DNA of 64,000 nt from a virus. The DNA is taken from the IMG/VR virus record IMGVR_UViG_3300049137_000157, positions 32,001 to 96,000 of that record. One strand, 5' to 3'. The notes beneath the pieces are model-generated. The model saw only the letters and a list, made by a program, of their open reading frames with translations. It was not told the origin of the DNA and did not search any database. The translations under genes were made by a program, and so were the position numbers. Below, in pieces: positions 1-12,200 of this stretch. How positions within the stretch are numbered: position 1 is the stretch's first letter; each line of letters opens with the position of its first letter.

Positions 1-98
1 GCACTGGAACTGCCACTTCATCGGGTCGTCGCCGAAACGGCTGCGGGCCTCGGTGAGAAGTTCCTGCTGCGTGAGCTTGCGGTAGTTGCTGGCCACGA

Positions 99-668
99 TC
101 ATCCCTTCTGGTCGTGCATCAGGTCTCGCACGATGGTGGCGGCGGCGTCCCGGTCACGGGTGTCCCACCAGAAGCCGGGGACGTCCGGGTGGTGCTCGTC
201 CTTGTGCGGGCCGGGATGGGTCGCGATGGCCTCGGCCGCCAGCCGGAGGATCTCGTTGGTACGGGCCTTCTCTGCCGCGTTGCTGTAGGTCGCCTTCTTG
301 TCCGGTTCCGGGGAGGTGGTGGCCAGGAGCCGGAGCATGGCCTCCTTGGGGGTGAGCCCTCGGGCCGTAGTCTGACGCTGGACCGGCCGCCACTGGAGGT
401 CCACCACCTCAACCTGCTCGACGTGGGTGCCCATGACGGCCTTTTCGTCGTTCCAGGGATCGAGACCTTCCTGCATCTCGGTAGCCGGGCGCTCCCAGTA
501 GACCTCGTACGTCTTGCCGTCGTCGGGGGCCCGGAAGATCAGCCGGTGGACGATGCACCATCGCAGCTCGTCCCAGGGTTCGTCGTGGAGGATGATCTCC
601 CGGTTCTTCAAGGGGAGTCCCCACTCCTCCAGAAGTTCCCGGCTGAAGTTCCTCTTGTTGCCGCTCAT
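99..668 (-). CDS. hypothetical phage-like protein (189 aa)
   Basis: ATG preceded by AAAGGAAAAGGG; protein-like composition; end of a leftward gene run. Confidence 0.8.
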   Translation of the reverse strand: MSGNKRNFSRELLEEWGLPLKNREIILHDEPWDELRWCIVHRLIFRAPDDGKTYEVYWERPATEMQEGLDPWNDEKAVMGTHVEQVEVVDLQWRPVQRQTTARGLTPKEAMLRLLATTSPEPDKKATYSNAAEKARTNEILRLAAEAIATHPGPHKDEHHPDVPGFWWDTRDRDAAATIVRDLMHDQKG

Positions 669-679
669 CCCTTTTCCTT

Positions 680-898
680 TCAGAAGATCTTCGTGACCTT
701 GTATGTGGTCGTCAGCTCCACGAGCCGAAGCCTTCGCCCCTCGAATTTCCGGTTCCTTGCGGCACGCTCAGTCCTCTCCGGAATCTCTCCTGCGGAGAAG
801 GAGCCTCCGGCCATCACCCAGGACCCGTCCAGTTCCCGCACTTCGATCCGGTACTGGATCTCCGTGGAGTTCGGGCGGGGGTCGAAGTCGGAGTTCAT
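680..898 (-). CDS. hypothetical protein (72 aa, MNSDFDPRP...)
   Basis: ATG overlaps the stop of 895..1164; the 5' extension in the ORF track is judged spurious. Confidence 0.7.
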   Translation of the reverse strand: MNSDFDPRPNSTEIQYRIEVRELDGSWVMAGGSFSAGEIPERTERAARNRKFEGRRLRLVELTTTYKVTKIF

Positions 899-1164
899 CC
901 GGCGCTGCGCCCGTGCTTGACGAGGTAGTTGATGAAGGTGTCCAGCACCTGCTGGGCCAGGATCTTCCCCTCGTCGAGAGAGGTGGTGAAGCGGTCGAGC
1001 GAACGTTCCCCGGGGACCATGGACGGCAGTGCCGTGGTCAGCTTCCACTCCCGGCCGTCGACAGGACGGGGCAGGCGACAAAGACTGAACAGGTAAAGAT
1101 CTCCGACGCGACCATCCACCTGGGCGGAGTCCTCGTCGCCGTCATCCCAACGGATCATTTTCAC
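895..1164 (-). CDS. hypothetical protein (89 aa)
   Basis: GGAGGG RBS; upstream TAGAAT -10 box and GGCCTAGGCC site. Confidence 0.75.
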   Translation of the reverse strand: MKMIRWDDGDEDSAQVDGRVGDLYLFSLCRLPRPVDGREWKLTTALPSMVPGERSLDRFTTSLDEGKILAQQVLDTFINYLVKHGRSAG

Positions 1165-1214
1165 CCTCCTTGTCGGATCGCTTTTCCTGCGACCCTGTTC
1201 CTCGATTCTATCAC

Positions 1215-1224
1215 GGCCTAGGCC
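1215..1224. promoter_or_regulatory. GGCCTAGGCC palindromic operator candidate
   Basis: exact palindrome 4 nt from a TAGAAT -10-like box on the minus strand; recurs across the window. Confidence 0.65.
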
Positions 1225-1228
1225 AATA

Positions 1229-1260
1229 GGAAGGGCCCCGTCTGTGGACGAGGCCCTTCC
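1229..1260 (-). terminator. intrinsic terminator-like hairpin after cspA
   Basis: GGAAGGGCC...GGCCCTTCC inverted repeat just past the cspA stop. Confidence 0.7.
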
Positions 1261-1271
1261 TGTTCGGATCT

Positions 1272-1475
1272 TCAGACAGTGCTGACGTCAGCCGCCTGGG
1301 GACCCTTCGAACCCTGCTCCACCTGGAAGTAGACGCGCTGCCCCTCTTCGAGACTGCGGTACCCACCACCCTGGATGGCGGAGTAGTGGACGAAGACGTC
1401 CTTCCCGCCCCCGTCCGGGGTGATGAAGCCGAAACCCTTCTCGGCGTTGAACCACTTCACGCTGCCCTGCGGCAT
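1272..1475 (-). CDS. cspA: cold-shock protein (CSD RNA chaperone, 67 aa)
   Basis: [18 protein letters not shown]...DVFVHYSAI: RNP1/RNP2 motifs; long 5' UTR with TACGAT -10-like box upstream. Confidence 0.95.
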
Positions 1476-1749
1476 GTCAGTCCTCACACATTGCTCGTTG
1501 GAAACCCCGGGGAAGAGTGACGCGAAACCCACGAACACCAAACTCGGAGTGCTCTGAAATCGTATCGACGATCCCCGACATGACCAGCGTAAAGATCAGA
1601 GGGAATCACGCCACCCACTGTTTCCTCACAAGCGAATGTCCCGACTGGTGAAGATTCTCCCAAAAACGTGCGGAGAAAAACGACTGACCGCCCGGAAGGA
1701 AGAACCCTCCGAACGGTCAGCAGTCATCCGGCTTGACGGCCTGCTCGGG

Positions 1750-3399
1750 TCAGGACATCCACGGCCAGTGGGCGTTGCGCCCCGACTCCAGCAGCGGAAT
1801 CATCCGGAACGCGGCGTCGGTGAGACCGCCGAACGTGTGCCGGTTGCCCTTGCCCGACGGACCGTGACCTGCCTGGTAGCCCGCGAGGTTCCAGGTGTAC
1901 ACCGGAATGTTCTTCGGGACCTGCTCGGTCGGGTCACCGCCGTGGGCGCTGTCGGCCTGCTCGTCCGTGATGATGACGACCCGGTCGTGTCGGGCGAACT
2001 TCTCCTGGACCGCAAGTGCGGTCGCGGTGCCGCCGCCGAGGAACCAGCCGCCGTCCTTCCACCGGCCCACCGCTCGCAGCAGGGACTCGCCCCGCTTGAG
2101 CGGGAAGTCCTTGGTGTTCGCCCCGGGTAGGTCGTTCCAGTACCGCTGGGTCGAGGAGAACGACACGACGTCCGCCGAGGCGCAGCGCTGTCCCAGGGCG
2201 ATACCGAACAGGGCGGCGGCGTCCCACCGCATGAGGCTGCCGTCCTTCGAGAAGGCTCCCTTCATGGACGTCGAGGTGTCGACCAGGATCAGCGTCCGCC
2301 CCTTCAGCTCGGGCACGTTGGCCAGCGAGTGACCGAGCGCCTTCTCCAGCGGGTAGCCCCAGCGCAGCGACGGGGCCGCCTGGTATGCCGAGTAGAACCG
2401 CATCGGGAACTGCTTGGACCGGGCAACTTCGGCCGGATCGGCGAGCTTCTTCGAGACCAGTTCCGCCGACTCGTCCGGCACACCCGACTCGTCGAAGTTC
2501 CGCAGGTTCCGCAGCAGCGCCATGTAGCCCATCGACGGGATCATCGACTGCCACAGGTCGCTCTTGTTGACCTTCGAACCGAGGGCGGACAGGACGTCCT
2601 CCCAGGTGAGTCCGGAAGCCTTCAGAGCGGCGGGGTCGAGGAGGCGGGCGAGGGTCTCGTGCTTGTCCGCCACGGTCCCGTCGATCACCTGCTGCGTCTC
2701 GCTGCGCCACCGGCGCTCACTGCGGAGCATGGCCAGCGAAGCCGGAAGCGGAGCCTCGTTGCCCTTGCTCTTGTGGTCGAGGATGTAGCCGAACAGTTCT
2801 CGCTGTCGCTGGTCGAGCGGGCTCGGGTGGACGATCCGCAGGGCGTCGGCGAACTTGACGTTGTTCTTGGCCGAGTCGTACTTGAGCCAGTTTCGCTCCG
2901 TGTACATTCGGCCGATCGCCGCCTCCAGGCCCTTGTACACCGCCGTGTAGCGCCGGGGCTTCGCCTTGCCTGCGATCGAGAACCAGTAGGCGAGGAACTC
3001 ACCCACCTCGTCCGGCCGCTGGAGCGAGCCGTCGATCATCTCGGCGATGCCGTCGTAGCGGTGGGCGTCGGCCAGCACCTTGGCCACCTCAGCCGCGCCG
3101 ACGACGGCCGCCGTGCGCATGAAGCCCTCGGAGCGCAGCCAGGGCAGAAAGCCCTGAACCCAGGCCGGGTCGTCGAGTGCGACCTTCTGGATCAGTTCGG
3201 CGTAGCGGGTGTCACGCCTGTCGGCCTTCTCGTAGAAGGTGTTCTCGCCGACCATGTTGGCGAGGGCGAGCAGGTACAGCTCGCTCTTGGCGTCGCGGAG
3301 GTATCCCGTTCCGCCCTGGTGGTTGATGGTGGTGGTCCCGGTCGAGGTGACCGGCGAGGTGACGAGCGGCCGGGTCGACCGGGTGTTCAGCTTGGCCAT
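1750..3399 (-). CDS. Ro60/Rsr-like TROVE-domain RNA-binding protein with C-terminal vWA domain (549 aa)
   Basis: TROVE-like N-terminus (ELYLLALANMVGENTFYE, MGYMALLRNLRN, FPMRFYSAY), MIDAS LILVDTSTSM and VIITDEQ; adjacent Y-RNA-like array. Confidence 0.92.
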   Translation of the reverse strand: MAKLNTRSTRPLVTSPVTSTGTTTINHQGGTGYLRDAKSELYLLALANMVGENTFYEKADRRDTRYAELIQKVALDDPAWVQGFLPWLRSEGFMRTAAVVGAAEVAKVLADAHRYDGIAEMIDGSLQRPDEVGEFLAYWFSIAGKAKPRRYTAVYKGLEAAIGRMYTERNWLKYDSAKNNVKFADALRIVHPSPLDQRQRELFGYILDHKSKGNEAPLPASLAMLRSERRWRSETQQVIDGTVADKHETLARLLDPAALKASGLTWEDVLSALGSKVNKSDLWQSMIPSMGYMALLRNLRNFDESGVPDESAELVSKKLADPAEVARSKQFPMRFYSAYQAAPSLRWGYPLEKALGHSLANVPELKGRTLILVDTSTSMKGAFSKDGSLMRWDAAALFGIALGQRCASADVVSFSSTQRYWNDLPGANTKDFPLKRGESLLRAVGRWKDGGWFLGGGTATALAVQEKFARHDRVVIITDEQADSAHGGDPTEQVPKNIPVYTWNLAGYQAGHGPSGKGNRHTFGGLTDAAFRMIPLLESGRNAHWPWMS

Positions 3400-3405
3400 G
3401 ATCTT

Positions 3406-3873
3406 CTAGTCCTTTCCGGTGGTCGCGTTCGGTGAGACCGTCGGGGCCTCCTTGAGTGCCTTCAGTTCGGTGAGCAGGGTGATGACGTGGGACATCAGTC
3501 CGGCATGCTCGGTCGCCCCCACTGCGAGAGCCTGGTCGCGGTGCTCGATGACCCCTTGCCGGACGCGATCGACATCTGCCGTAGTGGAGTCGATGCCAGT
3601 CGAAATTGCTGAAGACTTCGACGTTCCCACGTTGGGTGCTTCCCGGTAGGGCCGGAAAGCCGCAAGGGTCTCGATCCCCTCGACAATGACCCGGAGGTCT
3701 CCGTACAGATCCGAGAAGACGGCCTCGGCGTGCGGGTTTTGCAGGTAGTCGGGGTGCGGGTTCTGGGCGAGCGACCGCAATGCGCGCAGTTCCTCGTGGT
3801 CGACGGCGAGGAGGATGGTCTGCTCGTTCAGCGACTTGCCGGTGCTCTCGTCAGGGTTGGTGGCGTTCCTCAT
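3406..3873 (-). CDS. hypothetical protein inside the ligase-Ro operon (155 aa)
   Basis: AGGAG RBS before ATG at 3873; tightly packed between the ligase stop (3893) and the Ro start (3399). Confidence 0.75.
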   Translation of the reverse strand: MRNATNPDESTGKSLNEQTILLAVDHEELRALRSLAQNPHPDYLQNPHAEAVFSDLYGDLRVIVEGIETLAAFRPYREAPNVGTSKSSAISTGIDSTTADVDRVRQGVIEHRDQALAVGATEHAGLMSHVITLLTELKALKEAPTVSPNATTGKD

Positions 3874-3892
3874 GGACAGCGTCTCCTGTTGA

Positions 3893-4648
3893 TCACTTGC
3901 TGCGCAGAGTGCGGGCGTAGTCCTCGAAGCGGGCCTTGGCAATGATCTTGCGGTCCTCGGTCCGCAGGACGATCCCTTCGGCCTGACCCTTCGCTCCGTC
4001 GTCGAGTGCGACACGGGTGGAGGGGAGGGCGTCGAGAAGCCACTGCTGCATGCCCGCGATGCCCTTGGGGAGAGCCTGGGCCGGGACGCGACCGAGTCGC
4101 GGGGTCAGGGGGATGTTGACGGCGAGGGCGTAGTTCAGCATCTCGGTCTCGGTGTGGAAGTCCTGTCCGCCGTTGTCCCGCCAGGAGGCGATGCGCTCCC
4201 GGTTCCAGGTGAGGACGTCCGGGTTGAAGCGCGCGATGTCGAAGAGGCGGTAGCCGGTGAGGCCGGTGGTGGAGTACTGCTTGGCTGCTGCGCCGATGCC
4301 CGAGCCGTAGACCTCCAGGAAGAGGGTGTAGATCTGACCCGTGTCGGTGGGCTTGGCGAGCTGCTCCGCAAGGGGCCGCAGGGCGCTGACGATGCCGAGC
4401 GTCGGGTTGGCCACCCGGTCACCCTTGGCGTACAGGAGTTCCTTGCGCGAACCGATGAGGTAGTCGCCGTCGGGGAAGAGGACGATGCGCCCGTTGGTGC
4501 CGTCGACCTTCTCGGTGAGGACGACATCGCCCTCGAACTCCGTGGCCTCGTCGGTGAGGCGGCCCTTGTTGCCCAGTGCGTGGTACGTGAAGATGCTCGG
4601 GTACTGCGTGGCCGAGTCGATCTCCGGAAGCCTGTTCGGATCGAACAT
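3893..4648 (-). CDS. ATP-dependent RNA ligase, Rnl2-like adenylyltransferase domain (251 aa)
   Basis: nucleotidyltransferase motifs TEKVDGTN, FLEVYG, LFDI, EGIV, AKAR; RBS GGAGAAGGAC before ATG 4648. Confidence 0.88.
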   Translation of the reverse strand: MFDPNRLPEIDSATQYPSIFTYHALGNKGRLTDEATEFEGDVVLTEKVDGTNGRIVLFPDGDYLIGSRKELLYAKGDRVANPTLGIVSALRPLAEQLAKPTDTGQIYTLFLEVYGSGIGAAAKQYSTTGLTGYRLFDIARFNPDVLTWNRERIASWRDNGGQDFHTETEMLNYALAVNIPLTPRLGRVPAQALPKGIAGMQQWLLDALPSTRVALDDGAKGQAEGIVLRTEDRKIIAKARFEDYARTLRSK

Positions 4649-4678
4649 GTCCTTCTCCTTTTCCATCAGAACGCAGAA

Positions 4679-4708
4679 CGCCCCCTCTCCCGAATTGGAG
4701 AGGGGGCG
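4679..4708 (-). terminator. hairpin between the Y-RNA array and the ligase gene
   Basis: CGCCCCCTCTCC / GGAGAGGGGGCG 12-bp stem; only a weak U-tail on the minus strand. Confidence 0.7.
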
Positions 4709-4712
4709 CTTC

Positions 4713-4885
4713 CTGTGGTGCGAGGACGAAGTGACCGGCTGAAAAAGTCGGCCCCGGCGTGTGGAGTCTGATGCTCTACCAATTGAGCTACGGGCAGCTT
4801 GGCTGCTCGACGGGACTTGAACCCGCAACCGCCAGAGTGAAGTATCCGGAACCTGCGCTCCGGTCACCACGTCCTCGCATCACAG
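4713..4885 (-). ncRNA. YrlA-like Y RNA with circularly permuted tRNA domain (~173 nt)
   Basis: ~25-bp terminal stem; order is T-arm (GCGGG-TTCAAGT-CCCGT), loop-closed acceptor-like stem, then D-arm (TAGCTCAATTGGTAGAGC); near a Ro60 gene. Confidence 0.85.
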
Positions 4886-5042
4886 CTTCACAGATCCAGA
4901 GGAGCCACCGGCTGAAAGATGAGCCCCGGCGTTTGCCCCGTGCCAGATTTGGGCGTTGACGGATTCGAACCGTTCCATTTCTTGTTTCAGGAAGAAGTAA
5001 CCGTTGCTGCGGCACTCCGGTAACTCTTCTGAACCTGTGAAG
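4886..5042 (-). ncRNA. second Y-RNA-like unit with T-arm only (~157 nt)
   Basis: long terminal stem with G-U pairs on the minus strand; shared CCGGAG..TACTTC and CCGGGGC..TTTCAGCCGG motifs; ACGG-TTCGAAT-CCGT arm. Confidence 0.75.
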
Positions 5043-5045
5043 TCG

Positions 5046-5123
5046 AGCGCCCCCCGGCTGAAAAGTCGGCCTCGGTCTAATTTCACCGAAGAAGTATCCG
5101 AAGCCTGCGCTCCGGGGGTGCAC
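5046..5123 (-). ncRNA. third, minimal Y-RNA-like unit (~78 nt)
   Basis: terminal stem plus the same two conserved motif blocks; starts about 6 nt below a -10 box. Confidence 0.7.
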
Positions 5124-5128
5124 TAAGA

Positions 5129-5157
5129 ACACTAGGCCATTCGACAGGCCACCACAA
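5129..5157 (-). promoter_or_regulatory. sigma70-type promoter of the Y-RNA/ligase/Ro unit
   Basis: TTGTGG-17 nt-TAGTGT on the minus strand; the -10 overlaps a GGCCTAG half-site. Confidence 0.7.
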
Positions 5158-5217
5158 CTCGTTTTACGAATAGTCTGCCAACCTGGCCCGGTGGGCCGGA
5201 GGTCTCTTGATCGCCCG

Positions 5218-5553
5218 TCAGGCGACGATCAGGTACGTTGCCTCGGCATCCGTCACGGTGAAGGCCCGCTTCAGATCGGGTGTCACAGCGGCGAGGACCT
5301 CTTGCCGTTCGTCGTAGCACGAGACGAGGAGCTGCATGCACCCCGGGCACAGCCGGGCCAGCACGTCATCCCGGATCCGGGCCAGTCGGCTCTTCGACGC
5401 ACAGGCGTCACACACGATCGACCGAGGGTACGCCATGACCATCACCCGGTCGTCGTACGTCGCGTGCGCGACGAGCCGGATCATCTCGGTCCCGTGGTCG
5501 CCCTCGTCGAGCCACTTCTGTACGGCGTCGCGCAGATCGGTCCTCTTGCCCAT
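5218..5553 (-). CDS. hypothetical protein with CxxC pairs (111 aa)
   Basis: GGAAAGGAAGAGG RBS; CDAC...CPGC. Confidence 0.75.
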   Translation of the reverse strand: MGKRTDLRDAVQKWLDEGDHGTEMIRLVAHATYDDRVMVMAYPRSIVCDACASKSRLARIRDDVLARLCPGCMQLLVSCYDERQEVLAAVTPDLKRAFTVTDAEATYLIVA

Positions 5554-5604
5554 CTTCCTCTTCCTTTCCGGTCGCTCAGGTGTATCACCGCCGAGTGCGG
5601 TGGA

Positions 5605-5796
5605 TCAGTACACGTGGTCGCAGCGGATCCAGACGTTGTACTTCACGACGAACCCGCGCCCCGCGCACCAGGGGCAGCTCTTCTTCTGCCGGTGCTCAGG
5701 GCAGTGGAGCCGGAGATTCTTCCGCTCCAGGCATCCCTGACACCCGTTGTTCGGCGGCGGCTCCACGCTGGTGTACGCCACCCTCTCCTCTGCCAC
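5605..5796 (-). CDS. small Cys-rich zinc-ribbon protein (63 aa)
   Basis: strong purine-rich RBS before GTG; CQGC, CPWCAGRG. Confidence 0.6.
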   Translation of the reverse strand: MAEERVAYTSVEPPPNNGCQGCLERKNLRLHCPEHRQKKSCPWCAGRGFVVKYNVWIRCDHVY

Positions 5797-6136
5797 GTTC
5801 CTCTCTCTCCTTCCTCCTTACGCGAACGCCGGTCCCCTTGCAGTCCCGGCAGGGCGCTCCGGTCGTCGGGTTGAACATCCCGGCCTCGGAGACCCAGTCC
5901 TGCTCGCTGTCCGGATCGGCTCCGGTGCCCGCACAGGTGTCGCACTGGTTGGGCATCCGCATCTGCACCTCGACCACTGGGCAGTCCGTCTCGTGCAGGT
6001 ACTCACCGCCCTGGCACCACGGGCGACATCGACACAGGGTCGACTCCAGCGCATGGGCGTACGCCTGAGTCTCCCGAAGGACCTTCAGCACGGCTGCCAC
6101 CCTCCGTCCCTCATCGTCAGCTTGGTTTCGCTCCAT
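5696..6136 (-). CDS. DnaJ-type zinc-finger-repeat protein (CDTCAGTG...CRDCKGTG)
   Basis: two CxxCxGxG repeats; 3' end overlaps the next ORF by 101 bp so the end is uncertain. Confidence 0.55.
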   Translation of the reverse strand: MERNQADDEGRRVAAVLKVLRETQAYAHALESTLCRCRPWCQGGEYLHETDCPVVEVQMRMPNQCDTCAGTGADPDSEQDWVSEAGMFNPTTGAPCRDCKGTGVRVRRKEREERGRGEGGVHQRGAAAEQRVSGMPGAEESPAPLP

Positions 6137-6460
6137 CACTCCGTTTCGCCTTTCAGTACGCAGCTCCACCGATCCGATCGGAGAGAACTCCAACATCAAC
6201 TTTGTGTCGATAATCAACCTGCACAACAGAGGTGGGTTTTCCCCAGCAAGTTGCGCTACGATGACGTCCTGGATGGCATGCCTGACGGCTGCTTTCTGGT
6301 CGCAAGCGAACCTCAGGAACTTCCGTAGTAACCCAGTTGACGCTGGACGGGATGCCTTAGGTGTCGCACCGAGCGCCCTCGACCCTTGCAGCAGTCCGGT
6401 TGGCTCCGGTGTGAGGATCGGGGGCGCTTGGCATGTCCCCGCGAAGTGGAGAAACTTCGG

Positions 6461-6814
6461 TTACGACCGGATCACCGCGCTCGACGAGAATTCCGTGAAG
6501 CCCTCGAACCGCTCGTCGAGCAGCGGCATCAGCCGATTGGCCACTTCCGCTATCCCGATCGTGTTGGGCAGGGTCTGCAAGGAACACTCGGGGCACGCGA
6601 ACGGCTCACCGAAGATCAGGTTCTTCAGCCTGCCGCGCGACCGGCATTCGACGCACTTCTCCGACACCGGCACCACTTTCACCCACACGGCATGACCCGC
6701 GTCTTCGGAGTGAATGTCGAGACGCACGACCTTCCTGAAGTCACCCAGGACAGCGTCCTCCTGCTCCGCCACGAAGGACTGCACCTCACGGAGCAGAGCC
6801 CTACGGTCACTCAC
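6461..6814 (-). CDS. hypothetical protein with CxxC pairs (117 aa)
   Basis: GTG start after AAAGGGGAG; CVEC...CPEC. Confidence 0.7.
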   Translation of the reverse strand: MSDRRALLREVQSFVAEQEDAVLGDFRKVVRLDIHSEDAGHAVWVKVVPVSEKCVECRSRGRLKNLIFGEPFACPECSLQTLPNTIGIAEVANRLMPLLDERFEGFTEFSSSAVIRS

Positions 6815-6815
6815 G

Positions 6816-7193
6816 TCATCTCCCCTTTCCCGTCTTTTCCTCGTCCTGCCGCCGGGCTTCCGCTTCCCAGTCGATGTGTTCTTGCATCGTCCGACGAATG
6901 TGACTGAGGTTGTCCCTCTTGACGCCAACCCGAACGTTGACCGTCAACGCCCGCAGGCGCTCCAGCTCGCCGGGGTACTCCTCGTAGTCCGGCTTGCGGT
7001 AGTCGGCGATGTCTTCCAGGTGATTCAGCAGGTCCTCCCATCCTTGGCCGTACCACTGCGGGCCGACGAGAGCGGTGCCCCCGACCGGAATCGACCGGCA
7101 CCGCGCGATCAGCGCCTGGATCACCTCCAAGCGATACGCATCCACCTCCTCATCCGTGACGCCCTTGACGAGAAGAGCTTTGCGGGCGTTCAC
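6816..7193 (-). CDS. hypothetical protein (125 aa)
   Basis: coupled to neighbouring ORFs; protein-like composition. Confidence 0.7.
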   Translation of the reverse strand: MNARKALLVKGVTDEEVDAYRLEVIQALIARCRSIPVGGTALVGPQWYGQGWEDLLNHLEDIADYRKPDYEEYPGELERLRALTVNVRVGVKRDNLSHIRRTMQEHIDWEAEARRQDEEKTGKGR

Positions 7194-7486
7194 CGGGTGT
7201 CTTCGGCGGGATGTGCATCGATCTCCACGGACACCCCGACCGCACGGGCGTACCCCATGAGCGAAGACATCCGGGGGTCTGCGCCGAGGCGTTCGAAGTC
7301 TCGCACCTCCGAAAGGGGCATCTCCATGGCGACAGCCACCTGCTCGACACTGAGGCCGAGCTGGGTGCGGCGTGCCACCAAGGCGGCGATCAGCGACGTG
7401 ATCGTGGTGACGTCCTGGAGCGCCGCCAGCACCTGCGGATCGTCGGGGTCAAGGCCGAGGGACTTGCCGATCGATTTGGTGCTCAC
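7190..7486 (-). CDS. XRE-family HTH protein (98 aa)
   Basis: LVARRTQLGLSVEQVAVAM...DFERLGADPRMSSLMGYARAVG matches an XRE HTH. Confidence 0.8.
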   Translation of the reverse strand: MSTKSIGKSLGLDPDDPQVLAALQDVTTITSLIAALVARRTQLGLSVEQVAVAMEMPLSEVRDFERLGADPRMSSLMGYARAVGVSVEIDAHPAEDTR

Positions 7487-7908
7487 GTCGTTTCCTTCGT
7501 TCGGGGTGCGTCCACCGCGACAGGCACCGGCTTGGGATTGCCCAGGCCGATCGGCCGCTCGGGGCCGCAGGCGTTGAACAGCACCTGACCCGCGAGGGTT
7601 GCCGGATAGGCGGCACCCTGCGGGCGCATGCCTCGGATGCGTGCCGCGTACAAGGGGGCCGTGACGTATGCGAGACCCGCGCCGGACGCGTCCGCGAACG
7701 CCTTCTCCAGCACCGACAGGGTTTCGGGCGTGATCTCCTCGGCGTCGGCCGCGCCCCAGGCGAAGATGTCGCTGACGTTGACCGACAGGCTGATCTTGTT
7801 CTCCTCGGTGACACTCCAGAGGAGATCCTCGCGAACGTCTGCGAGGTAGAAGATCCGGAGGACTCGGGTCAAGAACGGGACGTCGTCTTGTGTGCGCGTA
7901 TCGGTCAT
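7483..7908 (-). CDS. hypothetical phage-like protein (141 aa)
   Basis: 4-bp overlaps with both neighbours. Confidence 0.7.
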   Translation of the reverse strand: MTDTRTQDDVPFLTRVLRIFYLADVREDLLWSVTEENKISLSVNVSDIFAWGAADAEEITPETLSVLEKAFADASGAGLAYVTAPLYAARIRGMRPQGAAYPATLAGQVLFNACGPERPIGLGNPKPVPVAVDAPRTKETT

Positions 7909-8267
7909 CGGGCACCACACCATTCTGGGAAGTTTCGCTTGATCTGCTCGTACTCCGCCCGGATCACGGACAGGACATCCCGTCCTTCCGGGAATTCAAA
8001 CCACTCGCCGCGAATGCGGTACCGGCCGAAGCTCTCGTGTAGCGCCCACTCCAGGTCGCGCCCGCCCGGGAAGGTCTCCAGGAGTTCGAGCGCGAAGGGT
8101 GAACCGGTCTGGAAGGAGGACAGCCGTTCCTCGGGAAATCCGTAACCGACCTTCACGGCACGGAACTCCGGCGAGCCGATCACGTAGACGCACGTCCTCT
8201 TCCGCCACTGTCGGTAGACCTGTCGGCGGCGTTTCTCCTCGTCGGCGACGACCTCTTCGGTCTTCAC
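7905..8267 (-). CDS. GIY-YIG-like T5orf172/Mug113 domain protein (120 aa)
   Basis: CVYVIG...AVKVGY...ERLSSFQTGSP...EWALHESF...RGEWF. Confidence 0.85.
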   Translation of the reverse strand: MKTEEVVADEEKRRRQVYRQWRKRTCVYVIGSPEFRAVKVGYGFPEERLSSFQTGSPFALELLETFPGGRDLEWALHESFGRYRIRGEWFEFPEGRDVLSVIRAEYEQIKRNFPEWCGAR

Positions 8268-8659
8268 CGGCCAGCCTCCGTACAGTCGCAGTCCTCGACG
8301 GTCGTCGCATCGCAGACGTGACTCCCGAGGGGACGGCCCGCGTCCGCGTGCAGCCGGTACCGGTTCACCATGTCGTTGATCTCGTGCCAGAACTTGCTGC
8401 TCTCGCCGTGACGGTCGTGACGGTCCCGCTGATCCTGGAGCCACTTGTCGACGGCGTCCCCGTGGACCGGCTGGAACGTGAGGCGCACACCGTATCGCTT
8501 CTTCCAGTTGTAGCGGACGAACAGGATCGCCCACCCCGGCATGGACGCGATGCGTTTCACCGGCTTCTTGAGGGGGGCCGCGAGCCCCACCTGCATCGTC
8601 TGGGGATTGACGCTTCCCCAGAGGGTGAGCTTGACGCCGGGCCAAACCGGGATCCTCAC
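8264..8659 (-). CDS. hypothetical protein (131 aa)
   Basis: GTG start overlapping the upstream stop; coupled run. Confidence 0.6.
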   Translation of the reverse strand: MRIPVWPGVKLTLWGSVNPQTMQVGLAAPLKKPVKRIASMPGWAILFVRYNWKKRYGVRLTFQPVHGDAVDKWLQDQRDRHDRHGESSKFWHEINDMVNRYRLHADAGRPLGSHVCDATTVEDCDCTEAGR

Positions 8660-8901
8660 GACGCCGCCCCCTGAGTGATCTGTCGGATGTACTCGGGATC
8701 GCACGTACAGCAGCGGGGCGAGCACTTGCACCCCGGACACGTCGGGGGGTTCAGGTCGCCCAGAGCCCGCAGGACTCGGATGGCTCGCGTCATCCCGCGA
8801 AGGAAGTCTGCACTCTCTCCGATGGAGGCATCCCTGTCCCGTTCCAGACTCTGGGCTGCCGTCTCCAGTACGAGGTGCACGTCGTTCGGGTCCAAGGTCA
8901 T
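8656..8901 (-). CDS. hypothetical protein with C-terminal Cys cluster (81 aa)
   Basis: GGAGAAGG RBS; CPGCKCSPRCCTC. Confidence 0.7.
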   Translation of the reverse strand: MTLDPNDVHLVLETAAQSLERDRDASIGESADFLRGMTRAIRVLRALGDLNPPTCPGCKCSPRCCTCDPEYIRQITQGAAS

Positions 8902-8972
8902 CGCCTTCTCCTCTCTGATCGCTGTGGATCATCTGCTTGCCTTGCCGTCAGGACTGACGTAGGGCCTTTGGG

Positions 8973-9356
8973 TCAGTTGACCCAGCGGCCGTCCTTGATG
9001 ACCTGTCGCCCGTCCTTCAGGGTGAGGTCGGTGATGAAGCTGGAGAGCTTCGTTCCGTCCAGAGCGCGCCGGTCGTAGTCGACGATCCACCACATCTCAC
9101 CGGGCTTGCCGTCGGTGTGGACACGGGTGGCGTAGGCGGGCTCCAGCAGCGAGGCCGCTTCACGCGCCCGAGATTCGGTCGGGAAGTGGATCCCTCCGCA
9201 GGAGTCGTTGATGCCGACCAGGAAGAGGTCGTAGAGGTCGAAGCCGCGCACGTCCAAGATGCTGAGAATCGGTTCGGTGGAGCCGACGGTGTACACGTTG
9301 CGCGGGTGGGTTCGGGTCCATCGGTTGGGCTTGAAGTTGTTCATGTCGATGGTCAT
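8973..9356 (-). CDS. hypothetical protein (127 aa)
   Basis: GGAG RBS; GC3-rich codon usage. Confidence 0.7.
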   Translation of the reverse strand: MTIDMNNFKPNRWTRTHPRNVYTVGSTEPILSILDVRGFDLYDLFLVGINDSCGGIHFPTESRAREAASLLEPAYATRVHTDGKPGEMWWIVDYDRRALDGTKLSSFITDLTLKDGRQVIKDGRWVN

Positions 9357-9502
9357 GAAGACTCCTGCATCGTCGAAGAGGGACTCCGCCCCTTGACGCA
9401 GGGGCGGAGTCCCAGGTTTTCGTTGCTGCCGATTCCGGCTTTTCGGGCCTCGGCCGACGAGGTGCGTTTCTTGCTGTTACATCAACCCCAGGCTTCCGCA
9501 GA

Positions 9503-9733
9503 TCAGGAGACCGCGCGGAGACGGGATCCTCCCTGGCGACGCCCGGACAGCAGGCTCTCGATGTCCTCCAGGGCGCTGTCGAGGGCGTTGATGTAGATCT
9601 CGCGGGCCTGCTCCCGCTCACCCTCGGGGAGCTTCTTGATGTCGGCGAGGAGCTTCGAGGAGCGAACCTCGATCTGCTCCGCCTGGGTGCTGGCCTCAGC
9701 GAAGCGGTCCATCCAGAACTGGGCACGGCTCAT
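9503..9733 (-). CDS. hypothetical helical protein (76 aa)
   Basis: CGGAAAGGAGGAG RBS. Confidence 0.7.
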   Translation of the reverse strand: MSRAQFWMDRFAEASTQAEQIEVRSSKLLADIKKLPEGEREQAREIYINALDSALEDIESLLSGRRQGGSRLRAVS

Positions 9734-9872
9734 GACCGTCACTCCTCCTTTCCGGAGCCGCTCCATGGCGGCTCTGCATGCCTTCAGACGGCATGTTCTT
9801 TTCCTGTCGGTACAGCAGAGGGGGCGCGGAAGGGTTGAGTAACTTCCGCGCCCCCTCTAGGAGTTCAGCCTA

Positions 9873-10145
9873 TCAGGTGGCCTGGGCCATGTCACGAGAG
9901 ACAGGGTTCTGCGAGGCCAGCCGGTTCGCCAAGTAAGCCTGCTCCGCCCAGTCCTCTCCTTCGCAGGCACCTTCGAGCACGTGCCGTCGCACCAGGCTCT
10001 TCACCGCTTCCGGTTCGGAGCCTCGCGCGATGGAGGAGATGGCGAGAGCCCCGAGCATCAGCAGCACTTCTGTCGGGGCACCCGGGTACTCATGCCTGAG
10101 CCAGGACACCAACTGCTCCGTCGTCCATGAGCGCGGCATCGACAT
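9873..10145 (-). CDS. hypothetical protein (~90 aa)
   Basis: follows and overlaps the primase stop; start uncertain. Confidence 0.55.
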   Translation of the reverse strand: MSMPRSWTTEQLVSWLRHEYPGAPTEVLLMLGALAISSIARGSEPEAVKSLVRRHVLEGACEGEDWAEQAYLANRLASQNPVSRDMAQAT

Positions 10146-11643
10146 CCTCCTGGGTCACTTCCTGGATGGTGTCCGGAACCTTCTTCCCCTGCGCCACGAC
10201 GGCCGGGCGCAGAGCCCGGACGTTGCTCTCGTTCTTCTTCTCTTCCCGGACTTCCTGGATCACGTCTCCGCCGAAGACGTCTGCCGTCTCCTCACCGAAG
10301 GATTCGTTCATCCCGGCGAGTCGGCCGGACAGCCACTCCACGCGAACCGACAGCTCCTGGAGCATGCGCTCCAGGTCCACCTGGTCATCGAGACACTTAC
10401 CCGCTGTACGGGTGAGCATCATCTTAATTTCCCTGCGGAACTGTCGTCGATGTACGAGACCGGCCGCCTTGTCCACCTTGGAGATGTCGCTGAACTTGAC
10501 CTTTGGGTTGTTCAGCTTCACCACCAAGGGGCGGAGCTGTTCCGCATCTTTACCCATGTGGGTCAGTTCAGACAAGACCGTCTCGACCGTGGGGGTGACC
10601 CACCTCTTGAGGAGCTTGACGAGCGCGGTGGCCACGTCTCGCAGCTCCTGACTCGTGCGGATGTCCTGCGGGTCCATCCCCGGGTTGTAGCTGTACTGGA
10701 GGATCGACGCGACCAGGCTTCGCTCCACCTCCGCCTCGCCGTAGTCGGGGAAGACCACCGGCTTGCGCCGCTCCTCCTCGGGGATCCGGAGAATCATCTC
10801 GGGACTGCGCTTCACCTGCTCGACGGGCACGTCCTCGAAGTCCTCGGGGGTGAAGCCGTGGTCGTAGTGGTCCGAAAGGTCCGCCTTGTGGTGCGCCAGC
10901 GGAGTGCAGACGATACGCACAGGACACGACAGCTTGCTGATGTCCTTGTACACCGTCTGTCCGAACTGGAGGCCCGCGTTGTCCCGGTCGATGACCACGA
11001 TGATCTCGCTGGCACCGTGGAGGTACTTGGTGAAGCTCCTCCGCCACGTCTTGCAGTTGGTGCTCGTCTCGCCGATCTCCGCGATGTTGCGGTCGGCGTC
11101 CTTCTCGCCTTCCACAATCCAGATGCGCCTGTTTTCGCGGGCCGCGCGGAGGACGTCAGGCAGGTGGTACAGGGTGCGTTCGACAGGTCCAAGAGACCAC
11201 CTTTTTCCGTACCGGGCAGTAGGGTCCGGACGGTAGTAGGAAAAGCCCCTGGGGCAGCCGTCGTTTTTCCGGGAACAGCGGACAACCGTGTAGATCCATT
11301 GCCCGTTCTCGTCGGAGTAGGTGTACTCCCGCTCCTTGTAGCCGGTGCACCCTTCCTTGTGGCACGGCATCCATCCGTCGGTGTCGTCACCTTTGCGGGT
11401 GGTGCGGTGCTCGCTGTCGAAAAGATCATTCATGCGCAGGTCAAGCGCCTCGACGACATGTTCCGTCTCGCAGCCGACCCAGCACTTGACCGTTGCACCC
11501 TTGTCGCCTTGGCGAACGCTGACGGACGGCTTCGTGTCGTTGTGCACCGGACACTGCATCTTGTAGTGAGCGCCTTCGGGCTTCACCTGAAGTCCGTGCT
11601 TCTGCGCCGCGTTGAGGACCTTTTCCACGGCCTCTCCGGCCAT
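10090..11643 (-). CDS. DNA primase (Zn-binding domain, TOPRIM, helical C-terminus; 517 aa)
   Basis: CPVHND...CWVGC zinc domain; IWIVEGEKDAD and VVIDRDNAG TOPRIM motifs. Confidence 0.9.
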   Translation of the reverse strand: MAGEAVEKVLNAAQKHGLQVKPEGAHYKMQCPVHNDTKPSVSVRQGDKGATVKCWVGCETEHVVEALDLRMNDLFDSEHRTTRKGDDTDGWMPCHKEGCTGYKEREYTYSDENGQWIYTVVRCSRKNDGCPRGFSYYRPDPTARYGKRWSLGPVERTLYHLPDVLRAARENRRIWIVEGEKDADRNIAEIGETSTNCKTWRRSFTKYLHGASEIIVVIDRDNAGLQFGQTVYKDISKLSCPVRIVCTPLAHHKADLSDHYDHGFTPEDFEDVPVEQVKRSPEMILRIPEEERRKPVVFPDYGEAEVERSLVASILQYSYNPGMDPQDIRTSQELRDVATALVKLLKRWVTPTVETVLSELTHMGKDAEQLRPLVVKLNNPKVKFSDISKVDKAAGLVHRRQFRREIKMMLTRTAGKCLDDQVDLERMLQELSVRVEWLSGRLAGMNESFGEETADVFGGDVIQEVREEKKNESNVRALRPAVVAQGKKVPDTIQEVTQEDVDAALMDDGAVGVLAQA

Positions 11644-11711
11644 GTTCACCCTCCCTCGTTCCCCCAAAAATGACGTCCCGTCAACTCCCCATTGGCGGGA
11701 GGCAGATTTGG

Positions 11712-12200
11712 TTAGTCTGCCATGGGATCCGCTTCGTTGTTAGACGTTCGTGATGCCTTCACGGTTGTACCGTCCGGCAGTCGAATCTCTTCCCGCCCCA
11801 CGGCTATCACCGAGGTCATGCCGGGCATGGCCACCGTGACGACGGGGACGGAGTAGCCGGTCGCGATCCGTGTCGCCACCCACTTGTCGTAACCGCTGAC
11901 GCAGACGAGATCCGCGTGTTCGGCGTACCTTTCGCCCGTTCCGTTGCACGGGGCGAGAAGGCTCAGGTTCCGGAGTTCGGTCTCCGAGTCCAGGAGCCTG
12001 AGGCATGCCGTCCAGATGGGGTCCTTGTCGCGTTCCCCCTGGATGAGCAGGAGGGTGCGGAGCTGGGACGTGGCCGCCCCGAGCAAGGTCTGGGCGATGT
12101 GGTCGACGGCGCTTCCGCCGTCGCCGACGTAGCCGTACACCCGGCCTGGTTCAAAGCCGAAGGCAGGGTGGGCCACGCTGATGGGCCCAGCCTTGATCAT
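11712..12200 (-). CDS. hypothetical protein, possibly a degenerate RecA/DnaB-fold fragment (162 aa)
   Basis: GFEPGRVYGYVGDGGSAVDHIAQTLL sits where a Walker A would be but lacks GKT; own promoter TTGGAA-18-TACCGT with an operator variant. Confidence 0.6.
   Translation of the reverse strand: MIKAGPISVAHPAFGFEPGRVYGYVGDGGSAVDHIAQTLLGAATSQLRTLLLIQGERDKDPIWTACLRLLDSETELRNLSLLAPCNGTGERYAEHADLVCVSGYDKWVATRIATGYSVPVVTVAMPGMTSVIAVGREEIRLPDGTTVKASRTSNNEADPMAD

What the first reader, a model, noticed from the sequence alone, without database searches (positions are those of the whole stretch)
4713..5123. Three abutting Y-RNA-like units of graded complexity with shared motif blocks
Seen: units at 5046-5123, 4886-5042 and 4713-4885 with 0-3 nt spacers. 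Each is closed by its own terminal stem with a different sequence, yet all keep the 5' block CCGGAG(C/T)GC...TACTTC and the 3' block CCG(G/A)GGC...TTTCAGCCGG. The insert between the blocks is a short hairpin (unit 3), a hairpin plus T-arm (unit 2) or a full tRNA-like domain (unit 1). Inference: a polycistronic precursor processed into three RNAs with a common Ro-binding module and different effector modules. The conserved blocks could seed a new Y-RNA covariance model.
Basis: partly seen in the sequence, partly recalled or inferred. Interest (0 to 1): 0.8.

Follow-up and report, generated by a model that had tools for sequence, protein, structure and literature searches.

The report
Phage Y-RNA array upstream of Ro60
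Three back-to-back small structured RNA genes in a 199-kb Streptomyces-type phage are Y RNAs, the partner RNAs of the Ro60 protein encoded 1.3 kb downstream; this is a real, unannotated example of a kind of locus already known from mycobacteria and other phages.

Summary
On the minus strand, 5123-4713 holds three independently folding units with 3-nt and 0-nt spacers. Each has its own terminal stem and the same two sequence blocks.

- **Structure:** the blocks form a stem / asymmetric internal loop / 8-bp stem module. Covariation across 150 related units supports it (93% paired, score 0.54 against at most 0.10 for slid controls).
- **Unit types:** unit 1 carries a YrlA-type permuted tRNA-like domain, unit 2 a T-arm, and unit 3 a short loop.
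- **Context:** promoter-like site, array, terminator hairpin, RNA ligase, 155-aa ORF, Ro60 (TROVE).
- **Relatives:** the promoter-to-hairpin stretch, with all three units, aligns with cluster-BM Streptomyces phages. A core-module model finds 1-6 such units upstream of rsr in related viral contigs, four other GenBank actinophages and all 80 actinobacterial loci searched.
- **Prior work:** M. smegmatis YrlA/YrlB, cut from one precursor (Chen 2014), and Thermus phage phiLo Yrl1/Yrl2 (2025) are close precedents.
- **Verdict:** a new member of a known kind.
- **Practical value:** Rfam gives no match at gathering score, and ARAGORN and GenBank call tRNAs inside such units.

Earlier notes of this scan cover the same locus.

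The parts
5129..5157 (-). Promoter-like site: -35 TTGTGG (5157-5152), 17-nt spacer, -10 TAGTGT (5134-5129). The predicted start is near G5123-G5121, at the base of unit 3.
   Evidence: Read from the sequence. Both hexamers align with TTGCGA / TAATGT of JustBecause, Frankenweenie and Satis at the same distance from the first unit. The E. coli-consensus scan did not flag it.
5046..5123 (-). Unit 3: short Y RNA (YrlB-like). It has an ~11-bp terminal stem, the Ro-binding internal loop, an 8-bp helix 2 (GGCUUCGG/CCGAGGCC) and a loop holding UACUUC...UGAAA.
   Evidence: Fold z -3.0. Core model R1 70.9 bits; R2 58.6 bits, E 4e-12.
4886..5042 (-). Unit 2: medium Y RNA with a ~24-bp terminal stem, a divergent Ro-binding loop (AGUGCCGCA / CAUCUUUCAG), helix 2 with tandem A.G mismatches, a UGAAA segment, a T-arm and a further hairpin.
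   Evidence: Fold z -4.7. R2 gives only 14.9 bits, E 0.25, at 4903-5025. It is nonetheless syntenic and alignable with the medium unit of JustBecause, Frankenweenie and Satis; Satis has A-U pairs where the window has the A.G mismatches.
4959..4973 (-). T-arm of unit 2 (ACGG-UUCGAAU-CCGU).
   Evidence: Read from the sequence. The same T-loop is found in the medium units of relatives.
4713..4885 (-). Unit 1: long, YrlA-type Y RNA with a ~23-bp terminal stem, the Ro-binding loop, helix 2 (GGUUCCGG/CCGGGGCC) and a permuted tRNA-like domain.
   Evidence: Fold z -5.4. R2 33.5 bits, E 6e-6, at 4730-4868. It aligns with 30 long units; 24 of the 33 consensus pairs show compensatory changes.
4748..4852 (-). 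tRNA-like domain of unit 1: T-arm, 7-bp closed acceptor-like stem, then U8-A9 and the D-arm. The order is permuted relative to a tRNA.
   Evidence: Rfam RF02553 YrlA 41.5 bits, E 1.7e-6. ARAGORN calls no tRNA here.
4679..4709 (-). G+C-rich hairpin (about 13 bp) with a weak U-rich tail: a terminator or attenuator between the array and the ligase RBS.
   Evidence: A hairpin at the same place in JustBecause, Frankenweenie and Satis has a stronger U tail.
3893..4648 (-). RNA ligase, 251 aa (PF09414), preceded by the RBS AAGGAGAAGG.
   Evidence: Pfam E 2.8e-14. PHROG 548 'RNA ligase'. JustBecause also has an annotated RNA ligase between its array and Ro.
3406..3873 (-). 155-aa ORF of unknown function.
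   Evidence: Translation. No Pfam or PHROG match. No such ORF is annotated between ligase and Ro in JustBecause.
1750..3399 (-). Ro60 / Rsr orthologue, 549 aa (TROVE).
   Evidence: PF05731 E 3e-16. PHROG 850 E 3e-48. Best solved relative is Thermus phage phiLo Ro60, 9KOP/9L5Y, E 4e-28.

Best explanation
This is an array of three Y RNA genes of the actinobacterial YrlA/YrlB type, carried by a complete 199-kb Streptomyces-type phage. It also forms the leader of the phage's RNA ligase / ORF / Ro60 operon.

**Transcription (inferred).** It starts at a host-type promoter at about 5123-5121. Most transcripts stop at the hairpin at 4709-4679. The rest read through into the ligase, the 155-aa ORF and Ro60.

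**Processing (inferred).** The precursor is cut at the 0-3-nt junctions between the long terminal stems, by RNase III or by single-strand nucleases followed by trimming back to the stems. This gives RNAs of about 78, 157 and 173 nt.

**Ro binding (structure shown, binding inferred).** Each RNA presents the same module: terminal helix 1, a conserved asymmetric internal loop (5' AGCGCA, 3' GACUUUUCAG), the 8-bp helix 2, then an invariant UACUUC. The phage Ro60 ring is expected to bind this module.

**Distal modules (inferred).** These are a tRNA-like domain, a T-arm plus hairpin, and a short UGAAA loop. By analogy with Ro-Y RNA-PNPase complexes of Deinococcus, Salmonella and Thermus phage phiLo, they would tether Ro60 to different partners such as host exoribonucleases, tRNA-recognising enzymes or the neighbouring ligase, for RNA surveillance or repair during infection.
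For: **Context.** Ro60 lies 1.3 kb downstream on the same strand.

**Sequence and structure.**
- Rfam YrlA gives a partial match to unit 1.
- The shared blocks are unique to this locus in the window, and core-model hits in the whole phage genome lie only here.
- The 5' strand GGAGCGCAGGU resembles GGUGCGAAGGU of relatives. By my recollection it also resembles the metazoan GGUCCGAAGGU. Chen 2014 gives the contacted metazoan motif as GGUCCGA and the bacterial motif as GNCGAAN0-1G (PMC4201824); the phiLo paper describes a CGAA motif in a large internal bulge (PMC12135203).
- Covariation of helices 1 and 2 on 33 units: 14 of 16 pairs change on both sides, score 0.59 against at most 0.105.
- On 150 units: 93% of cells paired, 474 double changes, score 0.544 against at most 0.095, 0 of 500 shuffles as high.
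- RNAalifold, run independently on the long units, recovers helix 1, helix 2, the T-arm, the acceptor-like stem and the D-arm; 24 of 33 pairs are compensatory.

**Distribution of core-model (R2) hits.**
- 74 hits in 24 viral/phage loci, all on rsr's strand and nearly all within about 900 nt upstream of rsr.
- 195 hits in 80 actinobacterial rsr loci, all on the same strand, 194 of them upstream of rsr.
- Only 2 hits in a 9.7-Mb Rhodococcus genome, both at its rsr locus.

**Synteny.** Promoter, short unit, T-arm unit, tRNA-like unit, hairpin and RBS align in JustBecause, Frankenweenie and Satis. Compensatory changes occur in the long stems. JustBecause also places an RNA ligase before Ro.

**Literature.** M. 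smegmatis YrlA and YrlB are Rsr-bound, lie upstream of rsr and come from a single precursor; YrlB has a T-arm (PMC4201824). The phiLo Ro60 binds two upstream Yrl RNAs and forms ternary complexes with host PNPase (PMC12135203).
Against: There are no expression, end-mapping or binding data for this phage or any cluster-BM phage.

Rfam YrlA stays below its gathering score (41.5 against 69).

Unit 2 scores only 14.9 bits (E 0.25) with the core model. Its status rests on synteny and on conservation in four phages.

The Ro-binding loop of this lineage departs from the family consensus:
- A instead of U at the first position of the 5' loop.
- G-C instead of the near-universal G.U pair that closes helix 1.
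- A different 3' loop.

Binding is therefore assumed, not shown.

The promoter was not found by the E. coli-type scan, and the terminator's U tail is weak in the window.

The covariation alignments were fitted to the model.
Confidence: 0.82

Rival explanations
1. The region is mainly a cis-acting leader of the ligase-Ro60 mRNA. The three modules would be Ro60 binding sites that let the protein autoregulate read-through of the hairpin or mRNA stability. They would not be sources of stable, separately acting small RNAs.
For: No room exists for a separate promoter between the hairpin (4679) and the ligase start (4648), so the operon probably depends on read-through from the array promoter. In relatives the arrays abut rsr, with a terminator-like hairpin just before the start codon.
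Against: The homologous M. smegmatis RNAs accumulate as discrete Rsr-bound species (PMC4201824). Each unit is closed by its own long stem, which suits excision and end protection. The distal modules are conserved and covary, which a mere Ro operator would not need. The two roles are not exclusive.
Confidence: 0.1
2. The units are decayed or aberrant tRNA genes, remnants of a phage tRNA cluster, with no link to Ro60.
For: T-loop and D-arm sequences are tRNA-like. ARAGORN calls 'tRNAs' inside the orthologous units of Frankenweenie, GiJojo, VanLee and JustBecause. Related phages carry real tRNA clusters next to Ro.
Against: The T-arm precedes the D-arm, and the acceptor-like stem is a closed hairpin. 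Unit 3 has no tRNA element. All units share a non-tRNA module with strong covariation. The position is fixed upstream of rsr in more than 100 loci. ARAGORN finds nothing in window 1-12000. The ARAGORN calls in relatives place the anticodon at odd positions, 30-32.
Confidence: 0.03
3. Chance or selfish intergenic palindromic repeats (REP/MITE-like) with no RNA function.
For: Three abutting imperfect palindromes with shared sequence blocks sit in an intergenic gap.
Against: There are no other copies in the 199-kb genome or in the window. Strand and position relative to rsr are fixed across phyla-wide samples. The changes are compensatory rather than simple sequence identity.
Confidence: 0.01

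Closest known systems
Mycobacterium smegmatis YrlA and YrlB (Chen et al. 2014, RNA 20:1715, PMC4201824)
   Same: Actinobacterial-type Y RNAs encoded in tandem upstream of rsr on the same strand and processed from one precursor. One (YrlA) has a permuted tRNA-like domain with a 7-bp acceptor-like stem, and one (YrlB) has only a T-arm. The complement of the published YrlB probe (..GGCGACUUCAAGGUUCGACU) reads like the UACUUC-then-T-arm layout of the medium units found here.
   Different: The window has three units rather than two, and it is phage-borne. Its terminal stems are 23-24 bp, against a family median of 9 bp. A ligase and an ORF sit between the array and Ro60. The Ro-binding loop is a variant (GGAGCG, a G-C closing pair). 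I could not fetch the M. smegmatis locus to score it with the model.
Thermus phage phiLo Yrl1/Yrl2 with phiRo60 (NAR 2025, PMC12135203; PDB 9KOP, 9L5Y)
   Same: A phage-encoded Ro60 with more than one Y RNA-like gene directly upstream. The RNA has a stem / large bulge / stem layout with a CGAA-type motif. This protein is the closest solved relative of the window's Ro60 (E 4e-28).
   Different: Different phage and host phylum, and two units rather than three. The paper text holds no mention of a tRNA-like domain.
Rfam RF02553 YrlA (Salmonella-type model)
   Same: Unit 1 aligns over the whole model: helix 2, T-arm, acceptor-like stem and D-arm.
   Different: The score of 41.5 is below the gathering score of 69. 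The 7-bp stem between helix 2 and the tRNA-like domain is missing in unit 1. The model does not cover the Ro-binding loop and cannot see units 2 and 3. Ten related viral loci gave no YrlA match at gathering score.
Unannotated arrays of cluster-BM Streptomyces phages (JustBecause MH744418, Frankenweenie OQ921725, Satis MH576962)
   Same: Orthologous layout: promoter, short unit, T-arm unit, tRNA-like unit, hairpin and RBS, with long terminal stems. JustBecause and Frankenweenie share the GGAGCG loop variant. JustBecause has the array-ligase-Ro order.
   Different: The Ro60 proteins are only 38-46% identical, and the nucleotide sequence gives no megablast match. The 3' loop differs (nnYUUGUUGG against GACUUUUCAG). 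The 155-aa ORF is not annotated in JustBecause. In GenBank these regions carry only ARAGORN-type tRNA calls.
Metazoan Y RNAs (hY1-hY5, Xenopus Y3)
   Same: Terminal stem formed by the 5' and 3' ends, a Ro60 site in a conserved bulged or looped helix, a 5' strand similar to GGUCCGAAGG (my recollection; Chen 2014 gives GGUCCGA), and variable distal modules that recruit other factors.
   Different: Here the Ro site is a large asymmetric internal loop rather than a helix with a single bulged C. The RNAs come from an operon precursor rather than single Pol III genes. The distal modules are tRNA-like.

Membership tests
Bacterial/phage Y RNA (Yrl) | Encoded within about 4 kb of a Ro60 (TROVE) gene, on the same strand. 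| tested here: met
   The array at 5123-4713(-) and Ro60 at 3399-1750(-) are 1.3 kb apart.
Bacterial/phage Y RNA (Yrl) | The 5' and 3' ends pair into a terminal stem that flanks a large internal loop or bulge followed by a second stem. | tested here: met
   Single-sequence folds. Covariation of both helices on 33 and on 150 units.
Bacterial/phage Y RNA (Yrl) | CGAA-type motif (GNCGAAN0-1G; metazoan GGUCCGA) on the 5' strand of the Ro site. | tested here: inconclusive
   Units 1 and 3 have GAGCGCAGG (CGCA, not CGAA), and unit 2 has GAGUGCCGCAG. Relatives show both GUGCGAAGG and GUGCGCAGG at the same aligned position. The match is close but not literal.
Bacterial/phage Y RNA (Yrl) | Bound and stabilised by Ro60. 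| not testable with these tools
   Needs RIP, EMSA or Northern blots in a Ro60 deletion.
YrlA subfamily (Rfam RF02553) | Permuted tRNA-like domain: T-arm, closed acceptor-like stem, D-arm. | tested here: met
   Unit 1 only. The Rfam alignment spans model positions 1-114. The consensus of 31 long units has compensatory changes in all three stems.
YrlA subfamily (Rfam RF02553) | Score at or above Rfam's gathering threshold (69 bits). | tested here: not met
   41.5 bits. The whole window gave no match at gathering score.
   u3 58.6 bits, E 4e-12, and u1 33.5 bits, E 6e-6. u2 gave only 14.9 bits, E 0.25. u3 was in the seed of R1.
tRNA gene | Cloverleaf in standard order with an anticodon loop and an open acceptor end. 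| tested here: not met
   ARAGORN finds none in 1-12000. The Rfam search of 1-12000 at E up to 1 listed no tRNA match. The T-arm precedes the D-arm.

The most novel reading that the evidence does not exclude
The array, the ligase and Ro60 may together form a phage counter-defence device. The sealed, anticodon-less tRNA mimic (u1) and the T-arm RNA (u2) would act as decoys or sensors for host tRNA-targeting nucleases, or would recruit damaged tRNAs to Ro60 and the adjacent RNA ligase for repair. The three module types would then be a small 'adaptor library' that points one Ro60 ring at different RNA targets. The lineage-specific change of the Ro-binding loop in all three units at once would reflect co-evolution that keeps phage Y RNAs from being captured by the host's own Rsr, and host Y RNAs from being captured by the phage Ro60.
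Probability: 0.15. Interest if true: 0.7.

Novelty: new member of a known kind. Interest (0 to 1): 0.35.

Why it matters
1. **Annotation.** Standard pipelines miss these RNAs. Rfam gives no match at gathering score, and ARAGORN and GenBank label parts of the orthologous units in four cultured actinophages as tRNA-Pro, tRNA-Arg or tRNA-Cys.

2. **A working model.** It is specific and shows that arrays of 1-6 modular Y RNAs, most often three among the best 150 matches, are the norm upstream of rsr in the actinobacterial and actinophage loci searched. This goes beyond the two RNAs shown experimentally in M. smegmatis.

3. **A way to test function.** Cultured relatives such as JustBecause on S. 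lividans carry the same array-ligase-Ro module. What phage Ro60 and its different Y RNAs do during infection can therefore be tested directly.

Tried and rejected
- **Megablast of the locus against GenBank phages:** no match. Protein-level searches were needed instead.
- **Exact-motif searches in the related loci:** almost nothing, because the window's loop variant is lineage-specific.
- **Degenerate pattern scan of IMG/VR for the window's 5' block:** only chance single hits, none with the 3' block. A wasted scan.
- **Model R1, built from short units only:** it could not bridge the long inserts of u1 and u2. It was rebuilt as R2 from 33 units.
- **First regex-based attempts to delimit units:** both failed, one from an indexing slip and one from a loose pattern. 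They were replaced by cmsearch coordinates.
- **Fetching the M. smegmatis YrlA/YrlB locus:** searching 401 Mycobacteriales genomes for the published YrlB probe found nothing, because the species was not in the sample. No direct scoring of the experimentally validated RNAs was possible.
- **A fourth core-model hit at 31823-31948(+), E 0.027:** it lies inside long ORFs and is taken as chance.
- **Tandem G.A or other pairings inside the internal loop:** considered, but no consistent scheme fits both the window and the consensus, so this is left open.

Full report
**What is there.** The window is bases 32001-96000 of a complete virus record of 199,468 bp with direct terminal repeats. Read 5' to 3' on that strand, the order is:
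- a promoter-like site, TTGTGG-17-TAGTGT (5157-5129);
- unit 3 (5123-5046), a 3-nt spacer, unit 2 (5042-4886), no spacer, unit 1 (4885-4713);
- a G+C-rich hairpin (4709-4679);
- an RBS and an RNA ligase (4648-3893; PF09414, E 2.8e-14);
- a 155-aa ORF with no family match (3873-3406);
- a 549-aa Ro60/TROVE protein (3399-1750; PF05731 E 3e-16, PHROG 850 E 3e-48).

The Ro60 protein's best solved relative is the Thermus phage phiLo Ro60, E 4e-28.

Each unit folds on its own into a structure closed by its own terminal stem (z -3.0, -4.7 and -5.4). Folding the whole 521 nt gives the same three closed domains plus the hairpin. The 5' block occurs three times in 64 kb against 0 expected, and the 3' block TTTCAGCCGG occurs exactly three times, only here. 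No tRNA is called. No Rfam family reaches its gathering score anywhere in the window. Rfam YrlA does match unit 1 end to end at 41.5 bits, E 1.7e-6.

**Anatomy of the shared module.** The blocks are not two independent motifs. They form terminal helix 1 (CCGG/CCGG plus its extension) and a conserved asymmetric internal loop (5' AGCGCA, 3' GACUUUUCAG). An 8-bp helix 2 of variable sequence follows, with U-A in unit 3 where unit 1 has C-G. Then comes UACUUC, then the variable insert.

The 5' strand, GGAGCGCAGGU, is close to GGUGCGAAGGU of relatives. By my recollection it is also close to the metazoan GGUCCGAAGGU. Chen 2014 gives the Ro60-contacted metazoan motif as GGUCCGA and the bacterial motif as GNCGAAN0-1G (PMC4201824). 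The phiLo paper describes a CGAA motif in a large internal bulge (PMC12135203).

**Relatives and covariation.**
- *Loci.* The Ro60 protein retrieved 20 IMG/VR loci at up to 57% identity. nhmmer and folding showed similar units directly upstream of rsr in those loci.
- *Models.* I built model R1 from eight short units and iterated it to R2.
- *Viral and phage hits.* R2 gives 74 hits in 24 viral and phage loci. All are on rsr's strand and nearly all lie within about 900 nt upstream of it, with up to six per locus.
- *Bacterial hits.* It gives 195 hits in 80 actinobacterial rsr loci (Streptomyces, Nocardia, Amycolatopsis and others). All are on the same strand, and 194 are upstream of rsr.
- *Specificity.* There are only two hits in a 9.7-Mb Rhodococcus genome, both at its rsr locus, and hits only at this locus in the phage's own genome.
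- *Helices 1 and 2.* On 150 units, 93% of cells are paired, 14 of 16 pairs change on both sides (474 cells), and the covariation score is 0.544 against at most 0.095 when partners are slid. None of 500 shuffles reached this (33-unit version). These alignments are fitted to the model.
- *Independent check.* RNAalifold on a MAFFT alignment of 31 long units recovers both helices plus the T-arm, the 7-bp closed acceptor-like stem and the D-arm. Of 33 pairs, 24 are compensatory.

**The 'graded complexity' is a family trait.** Among the 149 aligned units outside the window, 45 are short (60-90 nt core), 25 medium (90-130) and 78 long (130-170). Among the best 150 matches, three units per locus is the commonest count. 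Medium units carry a T-arm, placed either after a hairpin or directly after UACUUC. The second layout matches the complement of the published M. smegmatis YrlB probe. In core coordinates the window's units are 73, 123 and 139 nt, so they are one of each class.

**Orthologous arrays in cultured phages.** JustBecause, Frankenweenie and Satis (cluster BM Streptomyces phages, 184-200 kb) align with the window from the -35 hexamer to the RBS, at 74% mean column identity. They have the same short, T-arm and tRNA-like order and long terminal stems with compensatory changes, and a terminator hairpin. JustBecause and Frankenweenie share the GGAGCG loop variant, and JustBecause has an RNA ligase between the array and Ro. 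BRock, GiJojo and VanLee carry 4-5 units. None of these RNAs is annotated. Instead ARAGORN-type calls sit inside or across the units, with anticodons at unusual positions: tRNA-Pro(tgg), tRNA-Arg(cct), tRNA-Arg(tct) and tRNA-Cys(gca).

**How it most likely works.**
- *Shown:* the structure, its conservation, and its fixed link to rsr.
- *Inferred from geometry:* one promoter drives the array. The hairpin ends most transcripts and lets some read through, because no room exists for another promoter before the ligase.
- *Inferred from M. smegmatis (PMC4201824):* the precursor is processed into separate Ro-bound RNAs. The 23-24-bp stems and 0-3-nt junctions suggest RNase III or trimming to the stem. 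Long stems are in the upper tail of the family but not unique (median 9 bp, 90th percentile 13, maximum 27).
- *Inferred from Deinococcus, Salmonella and phiLo (PMC4201824, PMC12135203):* the distal modules tether Ro60 to other factors such as PNPase. A role in RNA repair or counter-defence together with the ligase is plausible (compare PMC7824862) but speculative.

**What is unusual here.**
1. The pair closing helix 1 is G.U in 134 of 150 units, but G-C in the window units and in JustBecause and Frankenweenie. In the same phages the first 5'-loop base is A rather than U, and the 3' loop differs. All units of a genome changed together, which suggests co-evolution with the cognate Ro60.
2. Unit 2 is a weak match to the core model (14.9 bits), yet it is conserved in four phages.
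3. UACUUC is nearly invariant in all classes without an evident partner.
4. A ligase and an orphan ORF are inserted between the array and Ro60.

**Comparison with what is known, and verdict.** Bacterial and phage Y RNAs next to Ro60 are established. Precedents include several per locus, processing from a single precursor, one tRNA-like RNA, one RNA with only a T-arm and one short hairpin RNA (Chen 2014), and a phage Ro60 with two upstream Yrl RNAs (2025). The window's array is therefore a new, unannotated member of a known kind.

The added value is practical. A working core model now exists, arrays of modular Y RNAs turn out to be the rule upstream of rsr in the actinobacterial and actinophage loci searched, and several GenBank 'tRNAs' can be corrected. 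Earlier notes of this scan on the same genome describe the same locus and agree with this reading.

Noticed in passing
L224:335-405 (JustBecause), L021:2745-2835 (Frankenweenie), L023:2769-2843 (GiJojo), L024:2626-2697 (VanLee): GenBank 'tRNA-Cys', 'tRNA-Pro(tgg)', 'tRNA-Arg(cct)' and 'tRNA-Arg(tct)' lie inside or across Y-RNA-like units just upstream of Ro. ARAGORN reproduces the calls, with anticodons at positions 30-33. They are probably false tRNAs built from a Y RNA 5' strand plus its T-arm.
   Followed up: partly
window 1228-1592 (-): Rfam cspA thermoregulator match below its gathering score (50.6 against 78 bits). It overlies a cold-shock-domain gene (1272-1541, PF00313 E 2e-31) just downstream of Ro60 on the same strand. 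Much of the match is coding sequence, so it is unclear whether a thermosensing leader exists.
   Followed up: no
window 4679-4709 (-); L224:~667-700; L021:~2947-2975: A terminator-like hairpin sits between the last Y-RNA unit and the next gene's RBS in the window and in cluster-BM phages. Similar hairpins precede rsr in L001 and L004. This suggests attenuated read-through as a conserved way to set the ratio of Y RNA to Ro60 mRNA.
   Followed up: partly
alignment A5, columns 9/717; window units: The near-universal G.U pair closing helix 1 (134 of 150 units) is G-C in the window's units and in JustBecause and Frankenweenie, together with the GGAGCG 5'-loop variant. This is a possible specificity switch for the cognate Ro60.
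   Followed up: partly
L019:475-1293 and L013:5040-5973: These viral contigs carry six consecutive Y-RNA-like units upstream of Ro, the largest arrays seen here.
   Followed up: no
window 3406-3873 (-): A 155-aa ORF between the ligase and Ro60 has no Pfam or PHROG match and has no annotated counterpart between ligase and Ro in JustBecause. It may be an accessory factor of the module.
   Followed up: no
window 56247-56330 (-): The only ARAGORN tRNA in the window is tRNA-Val(gac), 84 nt with the anticodon at position 37, which is longer than usual. It was not examined.
   Followed up: no
window 31823-31948 (+): Weak core-model hit (18.8 bits, E 0.027) inside overlapping long ORFs. It is taken as chance.
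   Followed up: yes
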